A stretch of 53,002 nt of DNA, taken from positions 1 to 53,002 of the forward strand of contig CAMFEP010000001.1 in NCBI GenBank assembly GCA_945949405.1, in the 5' to 3' direction. The notes below the pieces were generated by a model. It saw nothing but the letters and a program-made list of their open reading frames with translations. It made no database searches and was not told the DNA's origin. The stretch is from Kiritimatiellales bacterium (GTDB lineage: Bacteria; Verrucomicrobiota; Kiritimatiellia; UBA8416; JAIOPI01). Shown here piece by piece: positions 13,333-53,002 of this stretch (positions are counted from its first letter, which is position 1; each line of letters starts with the position of its first letter). The translations under genes and the position numbers were made by a program.

Positions 13333-13345
13333 GGCGCCTCCGGGG

Positions 13346-16300: not shown

Positions 16301-16450
16301 CAAGTCCTCGGCCCCGAAATACTGCTGCCAGACGTCATCCATGCCGTCGGCATCGAGATCGACCGCGTGGGCGGAGGAGAGGGGGAGCAGGATTAGCGCG
16401 CCGAGCAGCGGGGCGACACGCGAAAAGCAAAAGGTATGTGAGCCAAACAT
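13346..16450 (-). CDS. DUF1800 protein with N-terminal TSP3-like repeats, Calx-beta and CHRD domains
   Basis: ORF 13346..16486, start taken at MFGSHTFCFSRVAPLLGALILLPLSSAHA (ATG 16450). TSP3-like: DLDADGMDD...DSDGDGADNARESTAGTDPLD. Calx-beta-like: GVDYVETFSGQATLAFGQNELDLPLTPIADDVLEVPEYLNVTL. CHRD-like: SAHLHDHN...VYVNIHSTNYPSGEIEG. DUF1800 core: FGNFRTLLEDVTLHPIMANYL...PDENYAREIMQLFSIG...ELAKVFTGWAY. Confidence 0.8.
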   Translation of the reverse strand: MFGSHTFCFSRVAPLLGALILLPLSSAHAVDLDADGMDDVWQQYFGAEDLAPGVDSDGDGADNARESTAGTDPLDSASCFRLADAQPVNYTATTLRWLSEIGKRYLPQISTNLLAWLDWEPVLDGTDGDLEVVFPQTNALQFFRIQVSDVDSDADGINDWAELLAGFNPNQAETSTGTPDLVALSAILTNPTTLRVEVLQGTAYERNLTNQPGPGLLRIVRTGGLRAITAPYAVAGRPVQGVDYVETFSGQATLAFGQNELDLPLTPIADDVLEVPEYLNVTLQPGTNYALASTNSGAIRLLDDESGEEILFYTPLEADAGVVSSASGYGTLFLSGDHASARVSVTFSGLVAPQTSAHLHDHNTSAIMESLELGQILNHIWTFPTNGTGGFTSDQALLDALVANEVYVNIHSTNYPSGEIEGLFQRTEGSINFTAPPPATPPPAYTNAQLAQDVQRFIAQASFGQTDALFTNVMTRGLSGWLDDQMNTNLTPHTTLLPFVLSADNWVVAQNNAQTNASSTFQPFFQSLIHGWWTMSVHAQDQLRQRVAFALSEIFVVSVNNSTVRNRHYGTADYWDTLARNAFGNFRTLLEDVTLHPIMANYLSMVQNEKYNATTGVSPDENYAREIMQLFSIGLVELHPDGTLRLDATNGLPLSTYDNTDITELAKVFTGWAYSKTQTGGLASPTNWSNNGAITDNNSFGYRGGAQYAQAAYYHPLKMFAPQHETAAKTIVGDVHIPANQTGDQDLDTAMDALFNHPNTPAFIARRLIQRLVTSNPSRGYVYRVAQAFVNDGTGVRGNLGAVVRAILLDPEARTLSVASQVGYGKMREPLLEMTHLLRAFSATSSIPVSVLAPQGYTNPYAANASQIRFGNAVGGLGQLPLNAPSVFNWWHPDYSAPGPVSAAGLDSPEFEIATETQMFNLANLFSGAFWTGNGGNTIGGFAAELPPGYNALQARVALNTTATQSALTSGGVSGLVDYLNGLLTHQSLSSGARTIVTNALNATIAIPGSTQDNERIKTAIYLFFNSPDYVIQR

Positions 16451-16609
16451 GAGGCATTCTCCGCCATGCGTGAACCTGAAGAACAAACGCAGGGCTTTCG
16501 TTGTTTATTGTAGCCGATTTGGGGTGGCCACAAAAGGCACAACATCACACACGGGGACCGATCAGGGGGCCGATCAGGGCGGACCCGGGAGGGTGGCGCG
16601 GGTAAGCCC

Positions 16610-38375: not shown

Positions 38376-39638
38376 CTACGGCTGGCCCTTATTCGTTTCC
38401 AGACTCCGTAAAAGTGCAGCGCCCCGTTCCGAGATGGTTTTGATCAGACGCTCAGCCATGGCCGCATCTTCCGCGACGTTTCGCACACGAGGGTCCTGCA
38501 GGGCATTAACAGCAATTCGAGAGAGGGACGCCATGCGCTCGCGCATCATGGGCCAGCCTAGACGCGTCTCCTGGGCCATTTTCCGCCAATGCGTGGGCGT
38601 GATTTCATTGATGGACTCGGCGCCTCCAATCTTCATTGCCGGGGTCTTCGACAGTTCGGGCCAGGCCAACGTGCAAACCAGATCATAGAACGGTGCGAGT
38701 CTCCGTTCGTCGCCACGGTAGAGGATGGAGAAGTTTTTGCCGTGGGCGTCGGCATTGCCAATCAGCATGTTGAAGATCAGGCCATCGAGGAAATCTCGAA
38801 TGTCCAGCACCGGCGTGGTGGACCACTCGCGGAGCAGCCCGATGCAATCGCGGAGCAACGGTCCGCCCTCCGCCTGGTATTTGCGTTCCGGCGGAAATCC
38901 GAGCGCCTGGCAGAAATCCTCCTGGTGAACGCGTGTGACGACACTGTCGGCGCCAATCAGCCGATCGTATCGTTCGACCAGGATGCAGGCTTTGTCGCCG
39001 ACCCGCCGACTGTGGACCGCGGGCACGCGCAAGCCAATCGTCCGGGCGAGCGTCATGCAGAACAGTTCGTTGGCGGCCAGTCCGGGCAAACGATCCGGCT
39101 CAGGTTTTAAGATATGGGTGCTCGGTGTATTTCCGAGCGGCAAGGCGATGCCGGACTCGCGCACCACGACCGGTAGCTTGTCTTGCGCGCCGGCAAGAGA
39201 GAGTCGTATGCCTTCCTCGCCCGCCATCAGCGGACGACGGGGAAGTTCGGCGACAACATCCTGCAGCTCCTTCTCGCTCAGCTGGCGCAACCGCGTTTCG
39301 CCGATAGCGGGTGGCGCAACACCTTCGGGCAACAGACAGACCGCGCCCGCGCATTCGCCCCCGATCCGTTCCAGCATGGCAAAATCGTTGGCATCGCTGA
39401 TGCCGAGAATGGCGGCGATCTGCCGCCGCGGCCCCTCTTCGGGCAGGATGCCGGCGAAGAAGGCGCGAGCATGCTTTCCCCGGAATGCTTCGTCCTGCAA
39501 GGGAAGCATTCGCGAAAGTGGCCGTGCCGCAGGATTCCGAATCCAATCAGGTCTATAACGGAACTCGGCGATGTCGTTGTCGTCCTCTTCGAGCGTGCCG
39601 ACCGCTTCACTGTTCAGGTAGACGACTAAACGTTTCAT
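38376..39638 (-). CDS. hipA: HipA-family serine/threonine kinase toxin
   Basis: 420 aa. MKRLVVYLNSEAVGTLEE..., SLAGAQDKLPV, THILKP, VERYDR, VHQEDFCQALG, NADAHGKNFSILY. ATGA overlap with hipB. Confidence 0.9.
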   Translation of the reverse strand: MKRLVVYLNSEAVGTLEEDDNDIAEFRYRPDWIRNPAARPLSRMLPLQDEAFRGKHARAFFAGILPEEGPRRQIAAILGISDANDFAMLERIGGECAGAVCLLPEGVAPPAIGETRLRQLSEKELQDVVAELPRRPLMAGEEGIRLSLAGAQDKLPVVVRESGIALPLGNTPSTHILKPEPDRLPGLAANELFCMTLARTIGLRVPAVHSRRVGDKACILVERYDRLIGADSVVTRVHQEDFCQALGFPPERKYQAEGGPLLRDCIGLLREWSTTPVLDIRDFLDGLIFNMLIGNADAHGKNFSILYRGDERRLAPFYDLVCTLAWPELSKTPAMKIGGAESINEITPTHWRKMAQETRLGWPMMRERMASLSRIAVNALQDPRVRNVAEDAAMAERLIKTISERGAALLRSLETNKGQP

Positions 39639-39874
39639 GGTTTGCTGTTCCCGATTCTGTCGGAACCGGAACTATCAGCTTGCAGTTTGATCCCCAGAGC
39701 CTGGAGCACCTGCAGGATCTTCCCGATGTGGCAGGTGGGCTTGCCGCCCTCAAGATCAATGATGAAGCGCAGGCCGGTGCCGCAGGTCATGGCCAGGTCT
39801 TTCTGGGTAACCCGTAATTCCTTGCGCCGAGCGCGGATGAGGATTCCAAGCTGCTCTGTGCTGGTAATATTCAT
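39635..39874 (-). CDS. hipB: HipB-like XRE-family HTH antitoxin
   Basis: ORF 39635..39898. ATG 39874 (MNITSTEQLGILIRARRKELRVTQKDLAMTCGTGLRFIIDLEGGKPT) is preferred because the upstream 24 nt are an operator palindrome. Confidence 0.8.
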   Translation of the reverse strand: MNITSTEQLGILIRARRKELRVTQKDLAMTCGTGLRFIIDLEGGKPTCHIGKILQVLQALGIKLQADSSGSDRIGNSKP

Positions 39875-39876
39875 AG

Positions 39877-39989
39877 TTCCCGTTCGGGAATATTCCATAT
39901 GCGCTTCGTCTCGTCAATTCATAAAGTTCCCGAACGGTAATATTTATTACATCGCGCCGACGCCAGGTGAATATGTTCCCGATCGGGAG
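39877..39989. promoter_or_regulatory. Three phased palindromic operators upstream of hipBA
   Basis: TTCCCGTTCGGGAA (39877-39890, perfect), TTCCCGAACGGTAA (39927-39940), TTCCCGATCGGGAG (39976-39989). Spacing is 50 and 49 bp. Flanks are shared ((A/T)(A/T)G before, TAT after the first two). Confidence 0.65.
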
Positions 39990-40182: not shown

Positions 40183-41082
40183 TCACGATTTGGCATGCCG
40201 GCTGCCCTTGTGGCGGTGGCGGTAGGTGCCGGGGGTACAGCAAAAGTGGCGCCGGAAGACGCGATCGAGGTGACTTTCGTGGGAGAAATCCCAGTCGAAG
40301 GCGATGGCCTTGATGGGAAAGTCGGTGAGGCTTAAATCCTGCGCGACGCCGTTCAGCCGACAGCGCAGGCCGAACTTCGCGAAGGAAACGCCCATTTCCT
40401 TCTCGAAGTGGCGGCTGAAGTGATCAACTGGCAGCTTGAGGCTGTCCGCCATCATCTCGGTGGTGAGGAGGCGGCGCGACTGCATGGCCTGGTTGGCGGC
40501 GAGGAGGACGTCGGTGTCGCGTTCGCGGTGGTGCTGCGGCACGGCGTCGGCAGCCGCAGTATTCATGAGGGCGAGCAGGGTCTCCATCAGAATCAACTGG
40601 ACGCGAATATCGCCGGTATCATGGCGCTGATGCACGGCCTCGGCGAAGCGTCGGCCCAAGGCCAGCATGGCATCGCGCTGCGCGGGCGGCACACGTCCCC
40701 GTTCTGTCGGCGGCGACTGAAACGGCGCCAACCAGTCGATGGGGGTGCCGCCGGGCAGGCGCGTCTCCACCAACAGCCCCCGCCGAAAAATCAGGAAGAC
40801 CAGATCGCAGGGAGCCTGCACGATCTGGTAGCCGTGCGGTTCGAAGGCGTCGTGCAGCCAAACCTCGCCGGGGCCGAGGTCGCGCTTGACCGGCCCCCAG
40901 AAGCGACGGACGCACCCTTTCAGCACCATCCCGAATTCCAGATCGTCATGGATGTCGAACCAGGGATGCCGATCCACCGGCTTGTCCACGCGGATGTCGC
41001 CCGTCATGGGGGCGCTGGCCGAAAGGTGGAAGTCGTAACGGATCAGGGCGGTTTTTGGGGGCTTTGTCTGCTTCCGCTTCAC
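40183..41082 (-). CDS. AraC-family transcriptional regulator (cupin N-domain plus HTH)
   Basis: 299 aa, GTG start in the track; ATG 41007 is an alternative. Cupin-like: HPWFDIHDDLEFGMVLKG...WLHDAFEPHGY. C-terminal HTH: MADSLKLPVDHFSRHFEKEMGVSFAKF...IKAIAFDWDFSHESHLDRVFRRHFCCTPGTYR. Confidence 0.85.
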   Translation of the reverse strand: MKRKQTKPPKTALIRYDFHLSASAPMTGDIRVDKPVDRHPWFDIHDDLEFGMVLKGCVRRFWGPVKRDLGPGEVWLHDAFEPHGYQIVQAPCDLVFLIFRRGLLVETRLPGGTPIDWLAPFQSPPTERGRVPPAQRDAMLALGRRFAEAVHQRHDTGDIRVQLILMETLLALMNTAAADAVPQHHRERDTDVLLAANQAMQSRRLLTTEMMADSLKLPVDHFSRHFEKEMGVSFAKFGLRCRLNGVAQDLSLTDFPIKAIAFDWDFSHESHLDRVFRRHFCCTPGTYRHRHKGSRHAKS

Positions 41083-41084
41083 GG

Positions 41085-41127
41085 TGCGGAATTATGCTGG
41101 AGGCCTTGGGATATGCAAGTCGGAAAG
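41085..41127 (+). promoter_or_regulatory. Conserved upstream motif, copy 1 (direct repeats GGAATTATGC / GGGATATGC 20 bp apart)
   Basis: TGCGGAATTATGCTGGAG-GCCTTGGG-ATATGCAAGTCGGAAAG. Nearly identical to 44373-44416. Lies between the AraC-family gene start and the beta-helix gene. Confidence 0.6.
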
Positions 41128-41191
41128 GGTGCCAATCGGGGCCCGCCAAGGTATTGATGGAAGCGCGCAGCATGCTCTCGCGCAGCGCGGT

Positions 41192-41204
41192 GGGGGGGGG
41201 GGGG
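41192..41204 (+). repeat. G13 homopolymer in the leader/promoter region of the beta-helix gene
   Basis: The sequence reads GCGGT-GGGGGGGGGGGGG-CGGCG. It lies 61 nt upstream of ATG 41265 and 65 nt downstream of the conserved motif. Confidence 0.9.
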
Positions 41205-41264
41205 CGGCGAACCGTTCATGTTCGATTCCGGCGGTGCAGATCCCGTCGACGAAAGGGTAGGGCC

Positions 41265-44237
41265 ATGTCGAAGCTACGCAGCCTGTGGGTGATTGCGGTA
41301 ATGGGCTTCGCAACCTGGAGCGGCGGGCGCACGACACAGGCTGCGGTGGTGTATGTGGATGCGGGGATGGCCGGCCGCGGCAGCGAAACCAACGGCCTCA
41401 GCTGGGAAACTCCCTGGATCGATCTTCAGTCCGCGCTCGGTGTGGCGGCCGGCGGCGATTCAATCTGGGTAGCCAGGGGCGTCTACAAACCCGGGGTCAG
41501 CACCAACGACGCCTTCGTGCTGCCGGGCGGCGGCCTGCTGTATGGTGGGTTCACCAACGGCATGGCAACGCTGGAGGAGCGCGTGCCCCTCAAGCATCTG
41601 ACGATTCTGAGCGGTGACCTCCTGGGCAATGACGGCCCCAGTTTTGCCAACCGCACAGACAACGCGCTGAATGTCATCCGTTGCACGGGCGGCACCACCC
41701 GCAGCAACATCCGTCTGGATGGGTTCGTGATCCGCGGTGGCAACGCCGATGGAGCCGGGGCGCCGAACGATACCGGCGGCGGCGGGCACTTTGACCTGTG
41801 CCACGGGCTGGTCATCGCCAACTGCGTCTTCACGGACAATTCCGGCAAGGGCAGCGGCGCCATTCGCCTGCGCCGCTCGAACAACGTGGAAATCCAAGAC
41901 TGCATTTTCAGCGGGAATCGCGCCACCGATGCCACCAGCAATTTCGGTTCCGGCGCGATCGGTGGCAACGACCAGTTCTTCACCAATGTCGGTTATCCCG
42001 CCAACGTGCGGCGCTGCATCTTCACGGGCAACGCCTCCGCCGGACTGGCGGGTGTGACCTACGATTCGTCCGCCGCCTGGAACATCAACTTCATCAACTG
42101 CCTGATGGCCGGCAACACGGCGCTCTCCAACGGTGGCGCGCTCTACCTGCGCGGCGGGACCAATGCCATGGTCAACTGCACGATCGCGCTTAACGACCCC
42201 TTTGGCGTGACGACGCGCCTGACCACGAACATCTGCGTCAACACGATCATCTGGAGCAATGGGCTGGGTGGGGTCGCGAATCCCGATGTGGACCGCCAGA
42301 ATGGCGGCACGCTGGCGGTGCAGTTCGCGGACATCAACCACGGGACGTACTTTGGGCTAAACGGCACGATCATGGCGGATCCGAAGTGGGGTGCGGGTAC
42401 GCAGAGCACCTGGAATGCGGCCGGGGTCTATAGTCCGGCCCTGGGCCAGACGCGGTTGCGTCGCACCACGGCCACCTGGGCGGCCGATGCCTACCGGGGC
42501 ATGACGGTTAATCCTGACATCACGCAGAAGCGCCACTTCCTGATCAGTTCAAACTCGGCGACCGAGGTCTATGTCTGGGGCGATGCGCAGGCGATCGCGG
42601 GCTCCGGCGATATGTTTCGCGTCTGGGATTTCCGCCTTGGCGCCGGCAGTCCCTGTATTGATACCGCGACCAACGGCATCGTGTCTGACGACGTCATCCG
42701 GACGCCCCGGCCGCGGGGATTTGCGACGGACATGGGCGCCTACGAGTCCACGGCGACGGGCACGGTTGCGGGTGTGATCTACGTGAAGGCCAACGCCGCC
42801 GGCGGCAACAACGGGTCGGCCTGGGAGCATGCCTACACGAATCTGCAGTCGGCGCTGGCCACGGCATCGGGCGACAGCAAGAACCAGATCTGGGTGGCCG
42901 CCGGCACATACCGGACGGGAGCCGGCGTGGCGGCGACGTTTCTGCTGCCCACCCGCGTGCCGGTCTACGGCGGCTTTGCGGGCAACGAGGTGGCCCTGGA
43001 ACAGCGCAACATCGCGGCCAACCCGACGATGCTCAGCGGCGACGGCGACAGCAACGACACCGCTAATTTCGCCAACCGCGCCAACAATGCGGCGCACGTG
43101 ATCTCGGATCTCTACACCAAGAACGTGCGGCTGGACGGGGTTGTGATTCGTGGCGGCAATGCCACCGGCGTCGCCAGTGCCGGCTATGGCGGCGGCCTGT
43201 ACAGCGAAGGCAGCACCAACCTCGTGATTGCAAACTGCTCGTTCGTGGACAATTCGGCGGTGGGCGGCGGCGCGGTCTACATCAATGAACCGGCGCCCGA
43301 CTGGGTCACGATTTCGGATTGCGTCTTCAGCGGCAATCGCGCGACAGAACAGGACAACGACGTGGGCGGCGGGGCGATCGCGGGGGCGCGCGAACCGCTG
43401 GCCGCCGGGTACTTGCGGGTGGAGCGCTGTGTGTTCACGGGCAACCGGGCGCCCCAGTCGATCGGCGGCGTCTACGCCATGCACAACGAGTATCCGCTGG
43501 TTTCGCGCTTCGAGAACTGCCTGGTGGCCGGCAACCAGTCGGGCTACACCAACGAGGTTGACATTACGGGTCCGCAGGGCGGCGCCTTCTATCTGCGCCG
43601 CACGAATGCGGTGGTTCAGAACTGCACCATCGCCCTCAACCAGCCCTACGGGATGACGATCCGGCACCTGACGGCGTCGGTACAAAACACGATATTGTGG
43701 AGCAACACGACGCGGCAGATTCTATTCCTGACCCCCAGTGCGGTGTCGGCCCTCGCGTGCGACATCGACCAAGAGAGCTTTGAGGGGGCGAACGGCAACA
43801 TCCGTCAGGATCCGCAGTGGGGGCTCGGTACGAACGGCGTCAGCACCGGCGTCACGTACAGCCCCGCCACCGGCCGGTCGACGCTGACGGTTTCCGGCAG
43901 CGCTTGGGCGGCCGGTGCCTTCGCCAACCGCGCGGTGAACCCGAATACGGCCCAGAGTCTGCAGTTCTGGATCGTCACGAACTCGGCCAGCCAGCTTACC
44001 GTTTGGGGTGACATCCAGGCCGTGGCCGGTGTCGGCAACCCCTTCCGGGTCTACGACTACCACTTGACGTCCGCGAGCCCCTGCGTCGACCGTGGGGCGC
44101 TGCCGGGCGCGCCCGGCACGGACCTGGAGCAGGCCGTGCGTCCGGTGGCGAGCTTCCCGGATATCGGGGCCTACGAATTCGGCCCCCACCTGTACCAGCC
44201 GCCGGCTGTTCCCGGTGTGCTTTTGATCGTACGTTGA
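41265..44237 (+). CDS. Secreted protein with two tandem parallel beta-helix (Pmp-like GGA/FxxN) modules
   Basis: ORF 41055..44237. Start taken at ATG 41265 (MSKLRSLWVIAVMGFATWSGGRTTQA signal peptide), 990 aa. Module heads: VVYVDAGMAGRGSETNGLSWETPWIDLQSALGVAAGGDSIWVARGVYKPG and VIYVKANAAGGNNGSAWEHAYTNLQSALATASGDSKNQIWVAAGTYRTG. Repeated turns: GGAIRL..., CIFSGNRA, GGALYLRGG..., CTIALN. Confidence 0.8.
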   Translation: MSKLRSLWVIAVMGFATWSGGRTTQAAVVYVDAGMAGRGSETNGLSWETPWIDLQSALGVAAGGDSIWVARGVYKPGVSTNDAFVLPGGGLLYGGFTNGMATLEERVPLKHLTILSGDLLGNDGPSFANRTDNALNVIRCTGGTTRSNIRLDGFVIRGGNADGAGAPNDTGGGGHFDLCHGLVIANCVFTDNSGKGSGAIRLRRSNNVEIQDCIFSGNRATDATSNFGSGAIGGNDQFFTNVGYPANVRRCIFTGNASAGLAGVTYDSSAAWNINFINCLMAGNTALSNGGALYLRGGTNAMVNCTIALNDPFGVTTRLTTNICVNTIIWSNGLGGVANPDVDRQNGGTLAVQFADINHGTYFGLNGTIMADPKWGAGTQSTWNAAGVYSPALGQTRLRRTTATWAADAYRGMTVNPDITQKRHFLISSNSATEVYVWGDAQAIAGSGDMFRVWDFRLGAGSPCIDTATNGIVSDDVIRTPRPRGFATDMGAYESTATGTVAGVIYVKANAAGGNNGSAWEHAYTNLQSALATASGDSKNQIWVAAGTYRTGAGVAATFLLPTRVPVYGGFAGNEVALEQRNIAANPTMLSGDGDSNDTANFANRANNAAHVISDLYTKNVRLDGVVIRGGNATGVASAGYGGGLYSEGSTNLVIANCSFVDNSAVGGGAVYINEPAPDWVTISDCVFSGNRATEQDNDVGGGAIAGAREPLAAGYLRVERCVFTGNRAPQSIGGVYAMHNEYPLVSRFENCLVAGNQSGYTNEVDITGPQGGAFYLRRTNAVVQNCTIALNQPYGMTIRHLTASVQNTILWSNTTRQILFLTPSAVSALACDIDQESFEGANGNIRQDPQWGLGTNGVSTGVTYSPATGRSTLTVSGSAWAAGAFANRAVNPNTAQSLQFWIVTNSASQLTVWGDIQAVAGVGNPFRVYDYHLTSASPCVDRGALPGAPGTDLEQAVRPVASFPDIGAYEFGPHLYQPPAVPGVLLIVR

Positions 44238-44515: not shown

Positions 44516-47500
44516 ATGAACATCTGGCGTCAGCTATGCTGGGTTGTGGGGATGGGGCTGGTGGCGGGGTGGGGCGGGTTGCCGGCGGCACGGGCGACGG
44601 ACTGCTCGGGCGGCAATTCCACGAACGACAGTGGCGGATACCGGATTCACACCTTCACCAGCGGCGGCACGCTGACCGTCAACACGGCCGGCAACGTCGA
44701 CGTGCTGGTGGTGGGCGGTGGCGGCGGCGGCGGCGGCTATGTGGGTGGCGGCGGCGGTGGCGGCGGCGTGATTTACACCTCGGGCTTTTCGGTGGTGGCC
44801 GGCGGCATCTCCGTGACGGTGGGGACGGGCGGTACGGCGGGCGCGAACGCGGACGCGGGTTCCGCCACGGGCGGCGCGGGCGGGAGCAGCATCTTTTCCT
44901 CCCTCACGGCCGGCGGCGGCGGCGGGGGTGGTCGAGCCTACAACCACAACAACGGCTCGGTGGCCGCCGGTTCGGGTGGCGGCGCCGGTTGCAGCAACGG
45001 CGGCGTGAAGACCGGGCAATCCGGAACCAGCGGCCAGGGAACCAGCGGCGGCGACTCCTCCGCAACGTCGAACTATGGCGCTGGCGGCGGCGGCGGCGCC
45101 GGAGGGGCCGGCTCCAACGGCACGGACACCAAGGGCGGTGACGGAGGCCCTGGGTCCACGAATTCGATTTCCGGTGCGAGCGTGACGTATGGCGGCGGCG
45201 GCGGCGGCGGCAAATACTTTGGCACCTCCGGCGGTAGCGCGGTATCCGGTGGTGGCGGCAATGCGGGCAGTCCGGGACAAGCGGGGACGGCCAATCGCGG
45301 TGGTGGCGGTGGCGGCGGCGGGGTGAATCCAACCGCCGTCGGCGGCGTCGGCGGCACCGGTGTCGTCATCGTGCGCTATGCGCTGCCTGGAACACTCTCG
45401 ATCGATGTCACGCCCAACACGGCGTCGTGGACGATCACGTCCTATGCCGGTGGCTACGCGGGGCCCTTGAGCGGCACCGGTGACCTGGCGGCGACAACGG
45501 CTCCCGTGGGCAGCTACACCGTCCACTACAACGTGCTGGGCGGCTACAGCGCCCCGGCGGATCAGACGCTGAGCGTGGTCGCGAGCGCGAACACGGCGTT
45601 CAGCGGCACCTACGTGGCGGCGGTGTATGGCACGCTGTCGATCGACGTGACGCCGAACACCGGGTCCTGGACCATCACCTCGCATCCGCCAGAATACACC
45701 TCGCCGCTGAGCGGAACGGGAGACCTGGCGGCAACGACCGCCATCGTGGGCAGCTACACCGTTCACTACGAAGCGCTCGCGGGCTATTTTGCGCCGGCCG
45801 ACGAGACGCTTTCCGTGGTCGACAGCGTGAACACCGCGTTCACAGGGACGTACACGGCGGTAACGTATGGCACGCTCTCGATCAACGTCACACCGGACGC
45901 AGCGTCATGGACCATCACCGCGTACCCCGGCCCCTATGCGGGACCGTACAGCGGCAGCGGCGACCTGGCGGCAACGACCGCACCGATCGGCAGCTACACG
46001 GTGCACTACAACACGCTTGCGGGCTACCTGGCGCCTGCTGACCAGACGCTGTCCGTGGCGCTCAGCGCGAACACGGCCTTCAGCGGATACTATCCCCGGG
46101 AGCCGTTTGCGGCGACGGGCGGCAACTCGACCAACGACGTTGGCGGGTATCGCATTCACACCTTCACCAGCGGCGGCACGCTGACCTTCAACACCAACGG
46201 CAGCGTCGACGTGCTCGTGGTGGGCGGCGGCGGCGGTGGTGGCGGCTACGTGGGCGGCGGCGGCGGCGCGGGCGGTGTGATTTATCAGACGGGGTTTGCC
46301 ATTGCCGGGGCGGGTGGAATTTCCGTGACGGTTGGGACGGGCGGTGCGGCCGGGGCGAATATCGACGGGCCGACGGGCTCTGGCACGGCGGGCAATGCGA
46401 GCACGTTCTCCTCGCTCACGGCCGGTGGTGGCGGCGGTGGTGGCCGGGCCTACAACCATAACAATGCCACCACGGCGGCGGGTTCGGGCGGTGGCGCCGG
46501 AACGGGCGTTAGCCGGATCGGACAATCGGGAACCGCCCCTCAGGGAACCAAAGGCGGGGACTCGGATGTTACGAGCAATGAGGGCGCTGGCGGCGGCGGC
46601 GGGGCCAGTGCGGGTGGTGGCAACGGCAACGCGACCAAGGGCGGCGATGGTGGCGCCGGCGTCGCGAATTCGATTTCTGGTTCGAGCGTGACGTATGGTG
46701 GCGGTGGCGGTGGCGCGGCGTACTTTGGCACGGCCGGCGCCGGCGGCGCGGGCGGCGGCGGGAGCGCGGCTAACCCAGGTGTGGCCGGCACGGCCAACCG
46801 CGGCGGCGGCGGCGGTGGCGGCGGCGTTTCGGTCACGACGTCCGCGGGCGGCGCCGGCGGCTCGGGCATCGTGATTGTGCGGTATGCCCTGCCGGGCACG
46901 CTCTCCATCGACGTCACGCCAAACACGGCCTCGTGGACCATCAGCGCGTATGCGGCGGGATACTCAGGGCCGACCAACGGCACCGGGGATCTCGCGGCGA
47001 CCACCGCGCCCGTCGGCAGCTACACCGTTCATTATGAAACGCTCGCGAGCTACAGCGCCCCGGCGGATCAAACGCTGAGCGTCACGGCCCAGAACAACAC
47101 GGCGTTCAGCGGCACCTATACGGCGGCGGCCTACGGCACGCTCTCGATCGAGGTGACGCCCAACTCGGGCTCGTGGACGATCACGTCGCACCCGCCGGAA
47201 TACACGACGCCGTTGAGCGGCACCGGGGATCAGGCGCCGACCAACGCCATCGCCGGCAGCTACACGGTTCACTATGAAACGCTCGCCGGGCACCTGGCGC
47301 CGGCGGATCAGACGCTGAGCGTGGTGGCGAGTTCCAACACGGCCTTCAGCGGAACCTATACGGCGTTGACCTACGGGACACTCTCGATTGACGTGACGCC
47401 GAATTCGGGTTCGTGGACGATCACGTCATACCCCGCGGGGTACTTGACGCCGCTGAGCGGCAGCGGCGACCTGGCTGCCACCGCCGCGCCAGTGGGCAGC

Positions 47501-50500
47501 TACACCGTGCATTACAACACGCTCGCGGGCTATGACACGCCGGGCGACCAGACTCAGTCGGTGGTCGACAGCGTCAACACGGCGTTCAGCGGGGCCTACG
47601 TCGAGCAGCCGTTCGCGGGCACCGGCGGCAACACAACCAACGACGTCGGCAACTACCGCATCCACACCTTCACCAGCGGTGGCACCCTGACCGTCAACAA
47701 GAACGGCGTGGTCGACGTCCTCGTCGTGGGCGGCGGCGGCGGGGGTGGCGGCTACATCGGCGGCGGTGGCGGGGCCGGTGGCGTGATCGCCTCGAACGGC
47801 TTGAGCGTGTCGGCCGGCGCCATCACGGTGACGGTCGGCAGCGGCGGCGCGGCTGGCGCCAATGCAGACGCGATCAGTGGGTTCGGCGGGCCGGGCGGCG
47901 ACAGCGTGTTCGCCTCGCTCACGGCGGTCGGGGGCGGGCGCGGCGGGCGCGCGTACAACGACAACACGGGGACGGGCGGCTCAGGCGGCGGCGCCGGCGG
48001 CGGCAACGGCGTCGTGAAAACCGGGCAATCCGGCACCGCGGGCCAGGGCAGCAACGGCGGGAATTCCTCGACGACGTCGAACGGCGGCGCGGGCGGTGGC
48101 GGTGGCGCGAGCACCGCGGGCGCCAATGCGGTGACATACTCCGGCGGCAACGGCGGGGCCGGGATCACCAATGCCATCACCGGCACCAGCGTGACCTACG
48201 GTGGCGGCGGCGGCGGTGGTACATTTACGGGGGCCATCGCCGGCAGCGGCGGCACGGGCGGCGGTGGCAGTGGCGGCAGCACCCCGCAGGCGGGCACGGC
48301 CAATCGCGGCGGCGGCGGCGGCGGCGGCGGCTTCAACGGCAGCACGGGTGCAGGCGCCGCGGGCGGCTCGGGCGTCGTGATTGTGCGCTATCTCCTCAGC
48401 GGCACACTGTCGATCGACGTGACCCCGAACTCCGGATCCTGGACGATCACGTCGTACCCGGCTGGCTACACGGGCCCCACCAACGGAACCGGCGACCTGG
48501 CCGCGAACGTGGCGGTGGCCGGCAGCTACACGGTGCACTATGGCGCGCTGGCAGGCTACACCGCGCCCGCGGACCAGACGCTCGCGGTATCGCCCAGTGC
48601 GAACACCGCGTTCAGTGGTACCTACGTGGCGTTGGTATACGGGACACTGTCGATCGACGTGACGCCCAACACGGGCTCCTGGACCGTCTCCGCGTATCCG
48701 GCCGGCTATACGGGCCCGACCAACGGCACCGGCGACCTGGCGGCCACCGCCGCGCCGGTGGGCAGCTACACGGTGCAGTACGGCGTGCTCGGGGGCTACA
48801 GCGCGCCGGCGTCGCAGACGCTGGCGGTTACCGTCAGCGCGAACACCGCCTTCAGCGGGACCTACGTGCTGATCACCTACGGCACGCTGTCGATCGACGT
48901 GACGCCGAACGCGGGGACCTGGACGATCACCGCGTACCCGCCTGAGTACACGACGCCCCTGAGCGGGAGCGGAGACCTCGCGGCGACGACGGCGCCGGTG
49001 GGCAGCTATACCGTGGCGTACGGGACGCTGGGCGGCTACAACACGCCGGCGGACCAGACGCTGGCCGTGGTGGAGAGCGTGAACACGGCATTCACTGGGA
49101 CGTACGTCGAACAGCCATTTGCGGGAACGGGCGGCAACTCCACCAACGTCATCGGCGGCTATCGCATCCACACCTTCACCAGCGGCGGCACGCTCTCATT
49201 CAACAAGACCGGCGTCGTCGACGTGCTGGTGGTCGGCGGCGGCGGCGGTGGCGGCGGGTTTGTTGGCGGCGGCGGCGGCGGTGGCGGCCTGCTCTACCAG
49301 ACGGGATTTGCGGTGGCGGCTGGGACGGTTTCCATCACGGTGGGTTCGGGCGGCACGGCGGGAGCCAACGTGTCCACCACCGGATTCGGCGGACCCGGCG
49401 GCAACAGCGTGTTCTCGAATCTCACGGCCATTGGCGGCGGTGGCGGCGGGGCCAACTACGTCAACAACCCCGGCACCTACGGTTCCGGCGGCGGTGCGGG
49501 CTGCACGCAGACCGGTGTGCCCACCACGGGGCAATCCGGCACGGTTGGCCAGGGCAACCAAGGCGGGAGTTCGTCCTCATCGGTGAATGGCGGATCCGGC
49601 GGCGGCGGCGGCGCGGGTGCGGCCGGCGCGAACGCCTCCGGATCCTCCGGCGGATCGGGTGGGGCGGGACAGACCAACGCGATTTCCGGCGCCAGCGTGA
49701 CCTATGCCGGCGGCGGCGGCGGTGGCACGTTCACCGGCAGCGTGGCCGGCAACGGCGGTGCGGGCGGCGGCGGCAATGGCGGCAATCCCGCGCAGGTCGG
49801 CACTGCGAATCGCGGTGGCGGCGGCGGTGGCGGCGGGTTCAACGGCAGCACGGGCGTGGGCGCCGCGGGCGGTTCCGGCATCGTGATTGTGCGTTATGCG
49901 CTGTACGGCACACTGTCCATCGACGTCACGCCCAACACGGGCACGTGGATGATCACGAGCTATCCGGCGTACTACACCGGGCCAACCAACGGCACCGGGG
50001 ATCTGGGCGTGACCGTGGCGGCGGCGGGCAGCTACACCGTGCAGTATGGGACCATGCCGGGCTACCACACGCCGGCGTCGCAGACACTTGACGTCACCGA
50101 GGACAACAACACCGCGTTCAGTGGGACGTATGTCTTGAAGACCTATGGCACGCTCTCGATTGATGTCACGCCGAACACGGCGTCGTGGACGATCACGTCG
50201 TACCCGCCGGAATACACGACGCCATTGAGCGGCACGGGCGACCAGGCGGCGACGGCGGCGGTGGAAGGCAGCTACACGGTGCACTTCAACGCGCTTGCGG
50301 GCTATCACGCCCCGGCTGACCAGACGCTCGCGGTCGTGGGCAGCGCCAACACGGCCTTCAGCGGCGCCTACGTGTCCATTTACCGGTACGTCAACGACAA
50401 CGCGACGGGCGCGAACAACGGCACCAGCTGGGCCAACGCCTTTACGAATCTGGACACGGCGCTGAGTGCGGCCATCAGCGGCGACGAGCTCTGGGTGGCG

Positions 50501-51844
50501 GCGGGGACCTACAAGCCCGGTATGCTGACGACGGATCGCTTCAATCTGAAGAGCGACGTGGCGCTGTACGGCGGGTTCGCCGGAACCGAGTCTGCGCGCA
50601 GCGGACGCGACTGGGCCGCGAATACGACGATCCTTTCGGGCGACCTCAACGGTGACGACACGTCGGGCTGGGGCAACCGCGCCGACAACGCGGTGAATGT
50701 GCTCTATGCCAGCGGCCTGACGGGCGTGGTGCTGGACGGGGTCACGGTGCTGGGCGGTTACAGCACGACGGGCAACGGCGGCGGCTTGAGCGCCAGTGCG
50801 TCCACGGTCACCGTGGCCAACTGCGTGTTCACGGACAACCGGGCGCTGAACGGCGGCGGCCTATATTTGAACAGCACGCCGGCGACCATCGAGAGCTGTC
50901 GGTTCGTCAGCAATGGGACGCCCAGCGGCGGCCAGGGCGCCGGGTTGTGGGCGCAGAGCGCATCCGCCGGCGTATCGGGCACCATCCTGAACTCCGTTTT
51001 CTTCGACAACGTGTGCGGCGTTTCCGGCAGCGGTGACGGGGGCGGGGCCTGGCTGAAGGACAACTCCTACACCCTCGTCAACTGCACGATCCACGGCAAC
51101 TATGCCGGACGGCGCGGTGGCGGTCTCAAACTGGGCAGTCAGGGCGTCACGCCGGTGACCTTCGTGGTGAAGAACTGCATCGTGCTGAACAACACGATTG
51201 GGAGCGGCAGCGGCCCGGATGTCTACACCCAGGCCGACAGCGGGACGTCGCAAACGCTGGACATGAGCTACTGCAACTGGGCGGGTGGCGGGACCTTCGG
51301 CAACTTCAGCGCCACCGTCAACACCGCCAACATGCAGGTGGCCAATCCGCTGTTCGAAAATGCTGCCGGCGGCGACTTCCACCTCACCTCGGGCAGTCCC
51401 TGCAAAAACGCCGGCACGGCCACGGGCGCCCCCGCGCTCGATTTCGACGGCATCACCCGCGACGCCTCGCCCGACATCGGCGCGTACGAATACGTGACGC
51501 CGCTGACGGTGACGATTGACCAGGCGGTGGGGCAGGCGGACCCGACCAGCGGGGCCACGATCAACTTCACGGTGGTGTTCAGCGCGGCGGTGGCGGATTT
51601 CGTGACGGGCGATGTGACGCTGGGCGGGACGGCGGGCGCGACGACGGCGGTGGTCAGCGGCGGTCCCACGACCTACAACGTGGCGGTGAGCGGCATGACG
51701 GTCGACGGCTCGGTGATCGCAACGATCGACGCGGGTCGGGCGCACGCGGCGGCGGGCAACGCCAACCTGGCCTCGAGCAGTACGGACAACACGGTGACGT
51801 ACAACGTGCCGCTGCCCGCCGTTACCGTGATCAAGTTTAAGTAA
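44516..51844 (+). CDS. Giant secreted protein: 4 x glycine-run domain, each with Ig-like repeats (11 in total), plus a parallel beta-helix and a C-terminal Ig-like domain
   Basis: ORF 44417..51844 (TTG). ATG 44516 is preferred ([27 protein letters not shown] signal peptide), 2,442 aa. Glycine-run blocks start in frame at 44609, 46118, 47624 and 49130. Beta-helix head: [47 protein letters not shown]. See findings. Confidence 0.85.
   Translation: [2442 protein letters not shown]
44609..50374 (+). repeat. In-frame tandem super-repeat, period 1,509/1,506/1,506 bp, 3.8 copies, with nested approx. 246-bp Ig-like sub-repeats
   Basis: GGCGGCAA(T/C) unit starts at 44609, 46118, 47624 and 49130. Each unit is a 257-aa Gly-run block plus 3 x 82-aa repeats; the last unit has 2. 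Copies are diverged (many synonymous and non-synonymous differences by eye), so they are not recent duplicates. Confidence 0.85.
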
Positions 51845-51858
51845 CGACCGTTCGGTTG

Positions 51859-51978
51859 GACGGGATGTACAGGATTTACAGGATTGCAGTTGATCGACGG
51901 CAATCATGGCATGGCGCATTTGTCGGGGGCTGCGTCGGTTCGCCGACTCGCCATCCTGTACATCCCGTCTATCCCGTC
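51859..51978. repeat. Composite hairpin: perfect 17-bp inverted repeat built from (A)C(G/A)GGAT units, 77-bp spacer
   Basis: GACGGGATGTACAGGAT (51859-51875) followed by an extra TTACAGGAT unit. ATCCTGTACATCCCGTC (51953-51969) followed by an extra TATCCCGTC unit. The spacer contains GTCGG-TTCG-CCGAC (51934-51947). Confidence 0.8.
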
Positions 51979-53002
51979 TTTCTGTTCTGAGCGATCGAGA
52001 ACGGAAGGTAAGATTCGCGGACGCAGTAGTCTGGTGTGGGCGGCGGTGCTGCTCGGGTTGTGGTGCGGAGAGCTGCCGGCACATGCGCAAGGCGCAGCGC
52101 CGCCAGAAATTATCAACGCGGGCCCCACGTCGATCACGGCTCACGGGGCTATGGCGCAGGTGGATCTGCTCTCCACCGGCGCGGCGCCAACCCAGGTGTG
52201 GATCTACTGGGGCGACGAGGATGGCGGTACGAACCAGGCTGGCTGGGATGCCGGCATCGCGCTGGATTGGCAGCCGGCGGGTCCGCTGGCTGCGGCCCTC
52301 GGCGATCTCGCCGACGTGCGGATCTACTACTACCGCGGTTACGCCTCCAACGCGTTCGGCGACGCGTGGGCACCCGACAGCCAGAGTTTCACCACCCGGC
52401 TGGATTTCGTCGCGATTGGCGGCACCAACTGGATCGGCGAGAACATGGACTTCGAGGACGCGATCACCCCGCGCCCCGGGTTTCCCTACATCGTGTGGGA
52501 CTGGGACGGCCACAACTATGTGAACGTTGGCAAGGACGGCACCTTGCGGCCCATGCGCGGGAATCTCATGATGGAGGCGGGCTCCACCACACGCCCCTGG
52601 GAATCGAACTACGCCGTCTACCACGACGTATTCAACCGTCAAGGCCCCCCCTACCTCGACTTCGCGCGCTACCGGGAAGCGATCACGAACGGCACGGCCC
52701 GATTCGTATTCACCTTCCACTACAACCGCGTCTCGTCGGCGTTCGATCCGCTGGTGGACACCATGGTGTTCGGCCAGGTCACCTTCTACAACCCGGCCAA
52801 TCAGGAAATCATCTCGCTCGGATGGCCCCGCGAAAGCCACTTCGCCTCGGACAACGACCCGGCGACGTGGGAGGCCGCGACGATCACCGCCGTCCTGCCG
52901 CCGACAGCCGTGCACGTCCGCATCTGGCTGGGGTGGTACGAAAACGTGAGCAACGAACAGGCGGCCGGGCAGGAATTCCGGGGCAACTACTTCGACAACA
53001 TC
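51911..53002 (+). CDS. Secreted protein with Fn3-like N-domain; partial, continues beyond the right window edge; start uncertain
   Basis: Absent from the ORF track (no stop in window). The frame is open from ATG 51911 to 53002. It reads ...KIRGRSSLVWAAVLLGLWCGELPAHAQGAAPPEIINAGPTSITAHGAMAQVDLLSTGAAPTQVWIYWGDEDGGTNQAGW...VRIYYYRGYASNAFGDAWAPDSQSFTT..., then ...FRGNYFDNI at the edge. The signal-peptide-like segment begins only near 52010. Confidence 0.6.
   Translation, partial: MAHLSGAASVRRLAILYIPSIPSFCSERSRTEGKIRGRSSLVWAAVLLGLWCGELPAHAQGAAPPEIINAGPTSITAHGAMAQVDLLSTGAAPTQVWIYWGDEDGGTNQAGWDAGIALDWQPAGPLAAALGDLADVRIYYYRGYASNAFGDAWAPDSQSFTTRLDFVAIGGTNWIGENMDFEDAITPRPGFPYIVWDWDGHNYVNVGKDGTLRPMRGNLMMEAGSTTRPWESNYAVYHDVFNRQGPPYLDFARYREAITNGTARFVFTFHYNRVSSAFDPLVDTMVFGQVTFYNPANQEIISLGWPRESHFASDNDPATWEAATITAVLPPTAVHVRIWLGWYENVSNEQAAGQEFRGNYFDNI

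What the first reader, a model, noticed from the sequence alone, without database searches (positions are those of the whole stretch)
44516..51844. Giant surface protein displaying four ALK/gp38-like glycine-run domains on Ig-like spacers
Seen in sequence:
- One 7,329-nt ORF (2,442 aa) with a signal peptide.
- Four consecutive super-modules. Each opens with a 257-aa block beginning GGN(S/T)TN..G.YRIHTFTSGGTL..N..G.VDVLVVGGGGGGGG(Y/F)(V/I)GGGGG.GG.
- Each block carries six to seven runs of 4-8 consecutive Gly, mostly 7-8, separated by short variable segments (TVTVG.GG.AGAN, LTA.GGG.GG, GSGGGAG, TGQSGT.GQG, ISG.SVTY.GGGGG, GTANRGGGGGGGG) and closes GG(S/T)G.VIVRY.
- Each block is followed by three (last block: two) 82-aa repeats, GTLSI.VTPN..(S/T)W.I...P..Y..P..G.GD.A......GSYTV.Y....GY..PA.QTL.V....NTAF.G.Y.
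- The C-terminus is a parallel beta-helix plus an Ig-like end domain.

Established knowledge: regularly spaced Gly runs of this kind define the family Pfam calls Gly_rich (PF12810, accession from memory). That family includes the ALK/LTK receptor glycine-rich domain, shown structurally to be a lattice of polyglycine-II helices. A PGII sandwich is also the receptor-binding tip of T-even-type phage gp38 adhesins.

Inference: this is a multivalent PGII-based binding protein. I do not know of a described bacterial protein with four such domains in tandem.
Basis: partly seen in the sequence, partly recalled or inferred. Interest (0 to 1): 0.85.

Follow-up and report, generated by a model that had tools for sequence, protein, structure and literature searches.

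The report
Secreted giant with four glycine-lattice domains
This is a real 2,442-residue secreted bacterial protein carrying four copies of a glycine-rich domain best known from phage tail-fibre tips, but that domain family, and proteins holding many copies of it, are already catalogued and very common, so it is an untested member of a known kind.

Summary
One intact ORF (44516-51844, +) encodes 2,442 aa: a Sec-type signal peptide, four ~260-aa Gly-rich blocks, 11 short repeats (3+3+3+2), a beta-helix and an Ig-like end. The repeats are 80 aa long, not 82.

The blocks belong to Pfam PF21722 (Gly_rich_2; E=1.3e-67, four full-length stretches).

An AlphaFold model of one block is very confident (pLDDT 94.5). 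Its best solved-structure matches are phage receptor-binding parts: the cyanophage Pam3 tail fibre and the Bxb1 tail tip. ALK/LTK match only weakly, and gp38 was not retrieved.

Gly motifs and the beta core are conserved among the four blocks, while the connecting loops diverge (82%/75% vs 53% identity).

The family is huge (43,239 clusters), and arrays of 2-8 near-complete domains (up to 19 matched stretches) are common; close Lentisphaerae-type relatives carry 3, 4, 6 and 6.

Most likely it is a multivalent extracellular binding protein, co-encoded with a paralogous beta-helix protein beside an AraC regulator. Ligand and localisation are unknown. Verdict: new member of a known kind, moderate interest.

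The parts
40183..41082 (-). AraC-family regulator, transcribed divergently from the two-gene unit
   Evidence: Pfam HTH_18 at 3.7e-19 and HTH_AraC. An AraC gene occupies the same position beside the orthologous pair in the Lentisphaerae MAG locus L001.
41265..44237 (+). Partner secreted beta-helix protein (about 990 aa): two tandem PMP-type beta-helix modules. The real start is probably the ATG at 41265, not the TTG at 41055.
   Evidence: Pfam Chlam_PMP at 27 bits, above the 20.6 cutoff. 82% identity over 990 aa to the 989-aa protein at the same position in L001. The alignment starts at MSKLRSLWVIAVMGFATWSGGRTTQAA, and a second BLAST alignment shows an internal duplication at 37% identity. Each module is about 40% identical to the giant's C-terminal beta-helix.
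44516..51844 (+). Giant gene, 2,442 aa plus stop codon
   Evidence: The exact protein is in NCBI as P0121 on a 53,002-bp contig, which is this window.
44516..44596 (+). Sec-type signal peptide (aa 1-27, ...PAARA|TD)
   Evidence: Sequence inspection. Conserved in P0122-P0125. No lipobox is present, since the residues before Cys30 are A-T-D.
44609..45388 (+). Gly_rich_2 block 1 (aa 32-291)
   Evidence: PF21722 at E=1.1e-20 for this block alone, covering model positions 3-225 of 226. Domain coordinates from my own HMM.
45389..46108 (+). 80-aa beta-sandwich repeats 1-3 (aa 292-531)
   Evidence: 240-nt period from TRF. Repeat starts and identities. No Pfam match.
46118..46894 (+). Gly_rich_2 block 2 (aa 535-793); this is the block modelled
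   Evidence: Best PF21722 stretch, aa 553-790. AF2 pLDDT 94.5, pTM 0.92. Foldseek results.
46895..47614 (+). 80-aa repeats 4-6 (aa 794-1033)
47624..48400 (+). Gly_rich_2 block 3 (aa 1037-1295)
48401..49120 (+). 80-aa repeats 7-9 (aa 1296-1535)
49130..49906 (+). Gly_rich_2 block 4 (aa 1539-1797)
   Evidence: Modelled again at pLDDT above 90 in model 2.
49907..50386 (+). 80-aa repeats 10-11 (aa 1798-1957)
   Evidence: Model 2 residues 259-418 have pLDDT 85-92 and seven strands each. Foldseek matches tandem pilin/CnaB-like and transthyretin-like domains.
50387..51496 (+). PMP-type right-handed beta-helix (aa 1958 to about 2327), with repeated GGG(L/A) and (F/I/V)xxN motifs
   Evidence: DUF5123 at 1.4e-6, 29.8 bits, below the 35.1 cutoff. 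33-41% identity over 74-97% of the tail to PF02415/PF13229/PF17161 proteins. 40% identity to the partner protein. Model core pLDDT 60-84. Weak PL3 pectate lyase match, E=0.12.
51506..51787 (+). Big_12-like Ig-type end domain (aa about 2331-2424)
   Evidence: PF19078 at 3.6e-4, 21.2 bits, below the 27 cutoff. The top tail homologues share 55-75% identity over just this ~110 aa, and most carry PF19078. Poorly modelled, pLDDT below 50.
51809..51841 (+). Conserved short C-terminal end ...PLPAVTVIKFK; role unknown
   Evidence: Relatives end ...TVIKFK...TVIKFQ...TQFLFK and ...TQFQFQ even when the beta-helix tail is absent. The partner protein ends ...GVLLIVR, and its L001 orthologue ends ...MTVIVR.

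Best explanation
The gene encodes a Sec-exported, elongated modular protein from a probable Lentisphaerota (PVC) bacterium.

Domain structure. Four PF21722 (Gly_rich_2) domains are strung along one chain. Each is predicted to be a TNF-like beta-sandwich whose strands are interrupted by about a dozen glycine-rich segments. Those segments pack as an ordered lattice that is neither alpha nor beta, the polyglycine-II type bundle seen in phage fibre tips. The domains are held apart by rigid 80-aa beta-sandwich spacers. The chain ends in a PMP-type beta-helix and a Big_12 Ig-like domain.

Function by analogy. In phage receptor-binding proteins, the invariant Gly lattice is a stable platform and the variable connecting loops make the contacts. 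The four blocks differ mainly in those loops. The protein is therefore most likely a multivalent, possibly multi-specific, extracellular binding or adhesion protein. Candidate targets are cell-surface or particulate glycans or proteins.

Partner and regulation. It is probably made together with the paralogous beta-helix protein encoded just upstream, beside an AraC-type regulator that may control both.

Shown: the ORF, repeat anatomy, family membership, confident fold prediction, structural neighbours, loop-focused divergence and the conserved gene neighbourhood.
Inferred: PGII geometry (no coordinates could be analysed), binding function, ligand class, co-regulation and extracellular location.
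For: - Family: PF21722 matches four times, E=1.3e-67, near full model length. phrog_2295 matches at 7.8e-47 and phrog_863 'tail fiber assembly' at 7.4e-6.
- Fold: pLDDT 94.5 and pTM 0.92. Eleven short strands are spread along the sequence, and the Gly runs are ordered but have no regular DSSP structure. Block 4 reproduces this.
- Structural neighbours: Pam3 fibre at E=3e-6 (TM 0.45-0.52), Bxb1 tail tip at 4e-5, then LTK/ALK TG domains weakly. 239 viral models match at E<=1e-3 with TM up to 0.90.
- Sequence bridge: the A1 profile hits Pam3 gp24 at E=0.005, and GIIIVQYF aligns with GIVIVRY.
- Literature: Pam3 gp24 is a TNF-like plus glycine-rich receptor-recognition domain resembling S16 gp38 and C. 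elegans ALK (PMC9608196). The Pam3 and Bxb1 domains are PPII bundles (PMC13243192).
- Scaffold versus loops: among the four blocks, identity is 0.82 in Gly motifs, 0.75 in strands and 0.53 in loops. The same pattern holds over 23 blocks from five proteins.
- Display contexts elsewhere: the domain is fused to type IV pilin-like N-termini in an operon with LamG pilin-like proteins. It also occurs in giant proteins with LamG, Peptidase_S74 or T9SS tails.
- Spacers resemble the stalk domains of Gram-positive adhesins and pilins.
- The AraC / beta-helix protein / Gly_rich_2 giant unit is conserved in an independent MAG.
Against: - No ligand, localisation or expression data exist.
- No anchor, autotransporter barrel, PEP-CTERM, T9SS or LPXTG signal was found, so 'surface' is unproven and the route across the outer membrane is unknown.
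- TM-scores to solved structures are modest (0.45-0.52).
- The beta-helix could be catalytic rather than adhesive.
- Whether the variable loops cluster on one face could not be tested.
Confidence: 0.6

Rival explanations
1. Polysaccharide-degrading enzyme with binding modules. The C-terminal beta-helix, and the two helices of the partner protein, would be the catalytic lyase or hydrolase parts. The Gly_rich_2 domains would act as substrate-targeting modules, with the AraC regulator responding to a sugar.
For: - The beta-helix core weakly resembles family-3 pectate lyase and rhamnogalacturonan lyase (E 0.12-0.16).
- There is a sub-threshold DUF5123 match.
- Relatives' neighbourhoods hold glycoside hydrolases and a SASA esterase (L001) and a GH95 (L002).
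- The window has a GHL10-like gene and an aldose epimerase.
- AraC regulators commonly control sugar use (established knowledge).
Against: - No catalytic family reaches its threshold.
- The helix carries PMP-type GGx/FxxN repeats, which are typical of adhesin helices.
- P0123 and P0124 lack the beta-helix altogether yet keep the Gly-rich array, so the array is the conserved core.
- This rival still implies a binding role for the blocks.
Confidence: 0.2
2. Structural envelope component. This would be a sheath, S-layer-like or matrix protein, or an ice- or mineral-binding protein whose flat glycine faces act like those of the snow-flea antifreeze protein. It would not be a specific adhesin.
For: - PGII bundles also occur in arthropod antifreeze proteins (bioRxiv 10.1101/2023.11.25.568672).
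- The protein is very long and repetitive.
- The closest relative comes from a lake MAG.
Against: - The nearest structural relatives are receptor-binding parts of phages, not antifreeze proteins.
- The loops are variable while the scaffold is conserved, which fits recognition better than a uniform material surface.
- Copy number varies from 3 to 6 among close relatives.
Confidence: 0.1
3. Phage-derived element: a prophage, tailocin or contractile-injection-system tail fibre that happens to lie in the chromosome.
For: The domain is abundant in phage proteins. 239 BFVD models match, there are PHROG hits, and the best PDB matches are phage fibres and tips.
Against: - The protein has a Sec signal peptide.
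- No phage structural, integrase or lysis genes appear among the annotated ORFs. The neighbours include PPDK, a subtilase, hipBA, AraC, a C-terminal protease and transporters.
- The same cellular neighbourhood occurs in another MAG.
- There is no N-terminal fibre-attachment or trimerisation domain.
Confidence: 0.03
4. Artefact: a mis-assembled repeat array, or a disordered low-complexity ORF of no function.
For: The source is a MAG contig of unknown read type. The ORF's GC content is high (69.6%) and the gene is repetitive.
Against: - Copies are only about 70% identical in DNA, and the longest exact repeat is 33 nt.
- Four independent relatives share the architecture.
- The Pfam match is strong and the fold prediction confident.
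- There are no frameshifts over 7.3 kb.
Confidence: 0.02

Closest known systems
Pfam PF21722 (Gly_rich_2), labelled 'glycine-rich domain-containing protein' by NCBI and UniProt
   Same: All four blocks match the model over nearly its full length, far above the cutoff. Multidomain giants with 2-8 near-full-length domains, and up to 19 matched stretches, are common. Viral members superpose on the model at TM up to 0.90.
   Different: Nothing fundamental differs. This member combines the domain with a specific 80-aa spacer, a PMP-type beta-helix and a Big_12 end, and belongs to a small Lentisphaerae-type subfamily at about 70% identity. I found no functional study of any cellular member in the searchable literature.
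Cyanophage Pam3 tail fibre gp24 (PDB 7YFW/7YPX): TNF-like plus glycine-rich receptor-recognition domain
   Same: It is the best solved structural match (E=3e-6 to 1e-6, TM 0.45-0.52) and the only meaningful PDB sequence-profile hit (E=0.005). Both have a beta-sandwich whose strands extend into a lattice of Gly-rich motifs with variable tips (PMC9608196).
   Different: gp24 is a 280-290-aa trimeric fibre with an N-terminal alpha-helical docking domain, and it needs a chaperone, gp25. Here four domains sit in one Sec-exported chain, with no helical trimerisation domain and no gp25-like gene seen. The blocks are longer (about 260 aa against about 190 aligned) and have more Gly motifs.
Mycobacteriophage Bxb1 tail-tip proteins (PDB 9D93, chains Qa/Qb)
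   Same: Second-best solved match (E about 4e-5, TM 0.43-0.51). Bxb1 gp33 'brush' and gp29 subdomains are described as PPII helical bundles (PMC13243192).
   Different: They are components of a phage virion. I could not tell which gp corresponds to chains Qa/Qb. Identity is only 24-27%.
ALK/LTK TNF-like plus glycine-rich ('TG') ligand-binding supradomain (Pfam PF12810 ALK_LTK_GRD; PDB 7NX1, 7N00, 7LS0)
   Same: The design principle is the same: a TNF-like sandwich interwoven with a polyglycine-II lattice that binds a ligand. Weak Foldseek matches exist (E 0.015-0.3).
   Different: There is no PF12810 hit. The profile comparison with a bacterial PF12810 domain gave 1.9% probability. TM is only about 0.26. 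ALK/LTK are metazoan receptor kinases with a single such domain that bind ALKAL cytokines.
T-even-type gp38 adhesin (Salmonella phage S16, PDB 6F45)
   Same: Both use a conserved glycine-rich PGII scaffold carrying hypervariable loops that determine what is bound (PMC3157838; 10.1101/2023.11.25.568672). The same scaffold/loop pattern is seen here.
   Different: 6F45 was retrieved neither by sequence nor by Foldseek in the top 50. gp38 has a beta-helix-like middle domain rather than a TNF-like sandwich, has 10 PGII helices, and caps a gp37 fibre.
Chlamydial Pmp-type and other beta-helix adhesins
   Same: The C-terminal helix and the partner protein carry PMP-type repeats.
   Different: No autotransporter beta-barrel was detected in either protein.

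Membership tests
Pfam PF21722 Gly_rich_2 | HMM score above the gathering cutoff | tested here: met
   228.5 bits against a cutoff of 24.3, four stretches. A single block scores 75.1 bits, E=1.1e-20.
Pfam PF21722 Gly_rich_2 | Match spans essentially the whole domain model | tested here: met
   Profile positions 3-225 of 226 for both the best stretch and the isolated block.
Pfam PF21722 Gly_rich_2 | Same predicted fold as other family members | tested here: met
   Foldseek against BFVD 'Glycine-rich domain-containing protein' models gives E down to 7.5e-24, TM 0.79-0.90 and rmsd 1.7-3.6 A.
   No PF12810 hit at E<=1 for the whole protein or for one block. The model is in the library, because it hits P0136 at 1.1e-12.
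   hhalign of A1 against P0136 aa 1380-1720 gave probability 1.9%. The template was a single sequence, so sensitivity was low.
   7NX1 at E=0.015, probability 0.60, TM 0.26. ALK entries at E 0.02-0.3. Foldseek handles PGII segments poorly.
Polyglycine-II / PPII helical bundle domains (structural class) | Gly-rich segments with PPII backbone angles packed in a hydrogen-bonded lattice | not testable with these tools
   Model coordinates could not be read, so phi/psi angles and packing were not measured. Indirect support: the Gly runs have pLDDT above 90 with no DSSP helix or strand, and the best matches are solved PPII bundles (PMC13243192).
T-even gp38 adhesin | Sequence or structural match to gp38 (6F45) | tested here: not met
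   phmmer against PDB gave 0 hits. The profile search hit only Pam3 and a spurious PilT tag. 6F45 is absent from the Foldseek top 50.
T-even gp38 adhesin | Phage tail-fibre genomic context | tested here: not met
   Neighbours are cellular genes, and the cellular context is conserved in L001.
Pam3 gp24-type tail fibre | TNF-like plus glycine-rich domain similarity | tested here: met
   Profile E=0.005. Foldseek E=3e-6 and 1.2e-6, TM 0.45-0.52.
Pam3 gp24-type tail fibre | N-terminal alpha-helical trimerisation and baseplate-docking domain | tested here: not met
   The signal peptide is followed directly by block 1. Neither model has a long helix apart from one 7-residue helix in the beta-helix cap.
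Autotransporter (type V) Pmp adhesins | C-terminal beta-barrel translocator | tested here: not met
   No autotransporter family was found in the giant or the partner protein. The giant ends in a Big_12-like domain.
Pfam PF19078 Big_12 | HMM score above the gathering cutoff | tested here: inconclusive
   21.2 bits against a cutoff of 27, E=3.6e-4. Homologues sharing 55-75% identity over this segment mostly carry PF19078.

The most novel reading that the evidence does not exclude
Cell-encoded arrays of the phage-fibre-type glycine-lattice domain could form a widespread, uncharacterised class of multivalent recognition proteins. In this reading each domain's variable loops give it its own specificity, and copy number turns over quickly (3-6 among close relatives, with recent intragenic duplications). 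That would make them a cellular counterpart of phage receptor-binding proteins, used for partner, prey or substrate recognition or as phage decoys. The Lentisphaerae-type giant with its paralogous beta-helix partner would be one regulated two-component example.
Probability: 0.3. Interest if true: 0.6.

Novelty: new member of a known kind. Interest (0 to 1): 0.4.

Why it matters
Only a few polyglycine-II lattice domains have been studied experimentally: antifreeze proteins, Obg, acetophenone carboxylase, gp38, ALK/LTK, and the Pam3 and Bxb1 fibre proteins. Yet this search shows about 43,000 sequence clusters of the PF21722 type. Many are giant cellular proteins with several copies, and some are fused to pilin-like N-termini.

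I found no functional study of any cellular member. A tractable example would show what ligands these domains recognise outside phages, and whether loop variation sets specificity as it does in gp38. This protein has four diverged copies, a conserved partner gene and an adjacent regulator.

The individual protein is not exceptional within its family.

Tried and rejected
- NCBIfam scan of the protein and of one block: nothing significant.
- phmmer of one block against PDB sequences: 0 hits.
- tblastn of one block against 50,697 phage records: no match, almost certainly because the low-complexity filter masks the Gly runs. This is not evidence of absence, since BFVD and PHROGs show many phage members.
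- hhalign of the domain profile against a bacterial PF12810 domain: no link, but the test was weak.
- Literature searches for PF21722, Gly_rich_2 or bacterial giant glycine-rich-domain proteins: no paper on cellular members.
- Exact look-up of the window protein's contig: not on record.
- Genome scan: it did not find the source genome among the species representatives. The organism is therefore inferred only from the closest homologue, a Lentisphaerae/Lentisphaerota MAG.
- Promoter and terminator scans around the gene: not above the shuffled expectation.
- The spurious Nop10p (PF04135) hit to the 80-aa repeat is below its cutoff and was rejected.
- The long antisense ORFs across the gene (for example 50861-52915 on the minus strand) were treated as high-GC artefacts.
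- Model 2 gave no usable picture of the beta-helix N-cap or of the Big_12 end (pLDDT below 50).
Full report
OBSERVATION

The ORF 44516-51844 (+) is intact and encodes 2,442 aa. The ATG is preceded by GGGAGG, and the N-terminal peptide is conserved in four relatives. Residues 1-27 (MNIWRQLCWVVGMGLVAGWGGLPAARA) look like a Sec signal peptide. This is by inspection only.

Four Gly-rich blocks start at aa 32, 535, 1037 and 1539. They contain 7, 7, 6 and 7 runs of at least 4 Gly.

Blocks are 66-74% identical in protein and 69-73% in DNA. The longest exact DNA repeat is 33 nt. A collapsed or expanded assembly of identical repeats is therefore unlikely. Short repeats at the same position of different super-modules are the most alike (for example 1 vs 4 and 2 vs 5, both 0.81), so the unit that duplicated was the whole ~502-aa super-module.

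WHAT THE BLOCKS ARE

Pfam places all four in PF21722 (Gly_rich_2): E=1.3e-67, with the best stretch covering model positions 3-225 of 226. It does not match at E<=1. A profile comparison with a bacterial PF12810 domain found no link, though that test was weak. NCBIfam has no model for the blocks.

An AlphaFold2 model of block 2, built on a 50-sequence alignment, is very confident: pLDDT 94.5 and pTM 0.92. It has eleven short strands distributed along the chain. The Gly runs are ordered but are neither helix nor strand. Block 4 gave the same result independently.

Foldseek against the PDB ranks the hits as follows:
- Cyanophage Pam3 tail fibre, E=3e-6, TM 0.45.
- Mycobacteriophage Bxb1 tail-tip chains, about 4e-5.
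- LTK and ALK TG domains, only weakly (E 0.015-0.3, TM about 0.26).
- S16 gp38, not among the top 50.

The domain profile also hits Pam3 gp24 by sequence (E=0.005), with GIIIVQYF aligned to GIVIVRY.

Published work describes gp24 as a TNF-like sandwich extended into a four-layer lattice of 12 glycine-rich motifs that recognises the host. It reports similarity to both S16 gp38 and C. elegans ALK (PMC9608196). A later paper classes the Pam3 and Bxb1 domains with gp38 and ALK/LTK as glycine-rich PPII bundles (PMC13243192).

The nearest relatives, however, are other phage fibre proteins, not ALK or gp38.

HOW COMMON IT IS

- 239 viral models match at E<=1e-3, with TM up to 0.90.
- An exhaustive profile search of 1.84 billion representatives finds 43,239 clusters at E<=1e-3 and 9,113 at E<=1e-30. 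These include proteins with 14-19 matched stretches.
- Of the 236 fetched relatives with at least one near-full-length domain, 114 have two or more and counts reach 8.
- The closest relatives (about 70% identity) have 6, 6, 4 and 3 domains. One is annotated in a Lentisphaerae/Lentisphaerota MAG.
- Other architectures combine the domain with LamG, Peptidase_S74, T9SS tails and more.
- The closest single-domain relatives are ~440-aa proteins. Some have type IV pilin N-termini, and one lies in an operon with LamG pilin-like proteins.

Four tandem copies are thus ordinary for this family. I found no paper that studies a cellular member.

THE REST OF THE PROTEIN

The 80-aa repeats have no Pfam match. 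They model confidently as seven-strand beta-sandwiches (pLDDT 85-92). They resemble the tandem stalk domains of Gram-positive adhesins and pilins, and a transthyretin-like domain.

The tail comprises two parts:
- A PMP-type beta-helix. It has a sub-threshold DUF5123 match, 33-41% identity to PMP/Beta_helix proteins, and model pLDDT 60-84.
- A Big_12-like domain, which is below the Pfam cutoff although its homologues carry PF19078.

No anchor or known sorting domain was found.

CONTEXT

The window looks like bacterial chromosome. It carries PPDK, a phosphoribosyltransferase, an S8 subtilase, hipBA, an S41 protease, an MFS transporter and a DUF1501/DUF1800 pair.

Immediately upstream lies a secreted protein of about 990 aa with two PMP-type beta-helix modules. 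Each module is about 40% identical to the giant's tail helix. Before that lies a divergent AraC regulator.

The same AraC / beta-helix protein / Gly_rich_2 giant unit occurs in an independent Lentisphaerae MAG. There the partner protein is 82% identical. The giant is only about 70% identical and has six domains, so the giant evolves faster than its partner.

MECHANISM

Among the window's four blocks, mean pairwise identity is 0.82 in the family-conserved Gly motifs, 0.75 in predicted strands and 0.53 in the remaining loops. Across 23 blocks from five proteins, the Gly runs and the beta core are nearly invariant and the connecting loops are hypervariable. Recent intragenic duplications are visible, for example P0124 b3/b4 at 92%.

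This is the gp38/Pam3 logic of a stable lattice carrying variable contact loops. My best explanation (confidence about 0.6) is a Sec-exported, elongated, multivalent and possibly multi-specific binding protein, made together with its beta-helix partner.

Rivals:
- An enzyme whose beta-helices are catalytic and whose Gly-rich domains target the substrate (0.2). Two relatives lack the helix but keep the array, which weakens this.
- A structural or ice/mineral-binding envelope protein (0.1).
- A phage-derived fibre (0.03). The signal peptide and the conserved cellular context count against it.
- An artefact (0.02).

VERDICT

The fold class and the likely binding role hold. The Pfam family named is wrong, the closeness to ALK and gp38 is overstated, and the tandem arrangement is not unusual.

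It is a new member of a known and very large family that lacks functional study in cells. Interest is moderate (0.4).

Noticed in passing
window 51809-51841; window 44205-44234; P0122-P0125 C-termini; L001 about 9460-9488: The giant, its relatives and the partner beta-helix protein all end in a short hydrophobic-then-basic tail: ...TVIKFK, ...TVIKFQ, ...TQFLFK, ...TQFQFQ, ...GVLLIVR and ...MTVIVR. Relatives that lack the beta-helix/Big_12 tail have it too. It could be a sorting or strand-complementation signal, but it matches no known signal.
   Followed up: partly
window 38376-39898 (-): A hipBA-type toxin-antitoxin pair. HipA (Couple_hipA plus HipA_C) is preceded by an 87-aa XRE-HTH ORF (39635-39898) whose end overlaps the HipA start by 4 nt.
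   Followed up: partly
window 41055-44237 (+): The mechanical ORF starts at the TTG at 41055. The orthologue alignment and the signal peptide indicate that the real start is the ATG at about 41265. The protein is an internal duplication of a ~490-aa beta-helix module (37% identity between the halves).
   Followed up: yes
L003 6712-12506 (ENA metagenome scaffold): The closest single-domain relatives (~440 aa, e.g. P0008) sit in an operon of N_methyl (type IV pilin-like) proteins fused to LamG domains. P0008 itself has pilin-like N-terminal PHROG hits, which suggests the Gly_rich_2 domain is displayed on pili in some bacteria.
   Followed up: partly
P0124 (JGI); window aa 373-394: JGI names relative P0124 'rRNA maturation protein Nop10'. 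This appears to come from a spurious, sub-threshold PF04135 hit to the 80-aa repeat. The same hit appears for the window protein (24.9 bits against a cutoff of 27.2).
   Followed up: yes
P0123 and P0124 (same 18,855-bp contig): Two paralogous Gly_rich_2 giants (2,798 and 1,944 aa) are reported with the same longest-contig length. If they share that contig, together they fill about three quarters of it. Both lack the beta-helix/Big_12 tail.
   Followed up: no
window 32639-37315 (+): A second very large secreted protein lies nearby: a 1,558-aa S8 subtilase with an InhA-like MAM domain.
   Followed up: no
window 11890-16486 (-): A DUF1501 protein lies next to a 1,046-aa DUF1800 protein with a CHRD domain and a bacterial TSP3 repeat. 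The function of this gene pair is unknown.
   Followed up: no
L005 (JAIOPI010000033.1, 149610-171334): The Lentisphaerae MAG contig that carries the orthologous giant also encodes, about 130-150 kb away, another protein 39% identical to the beta-helix/Big_12 tail. This helix module is therefore a multi-copy family in these genomes.
   Followed up: no
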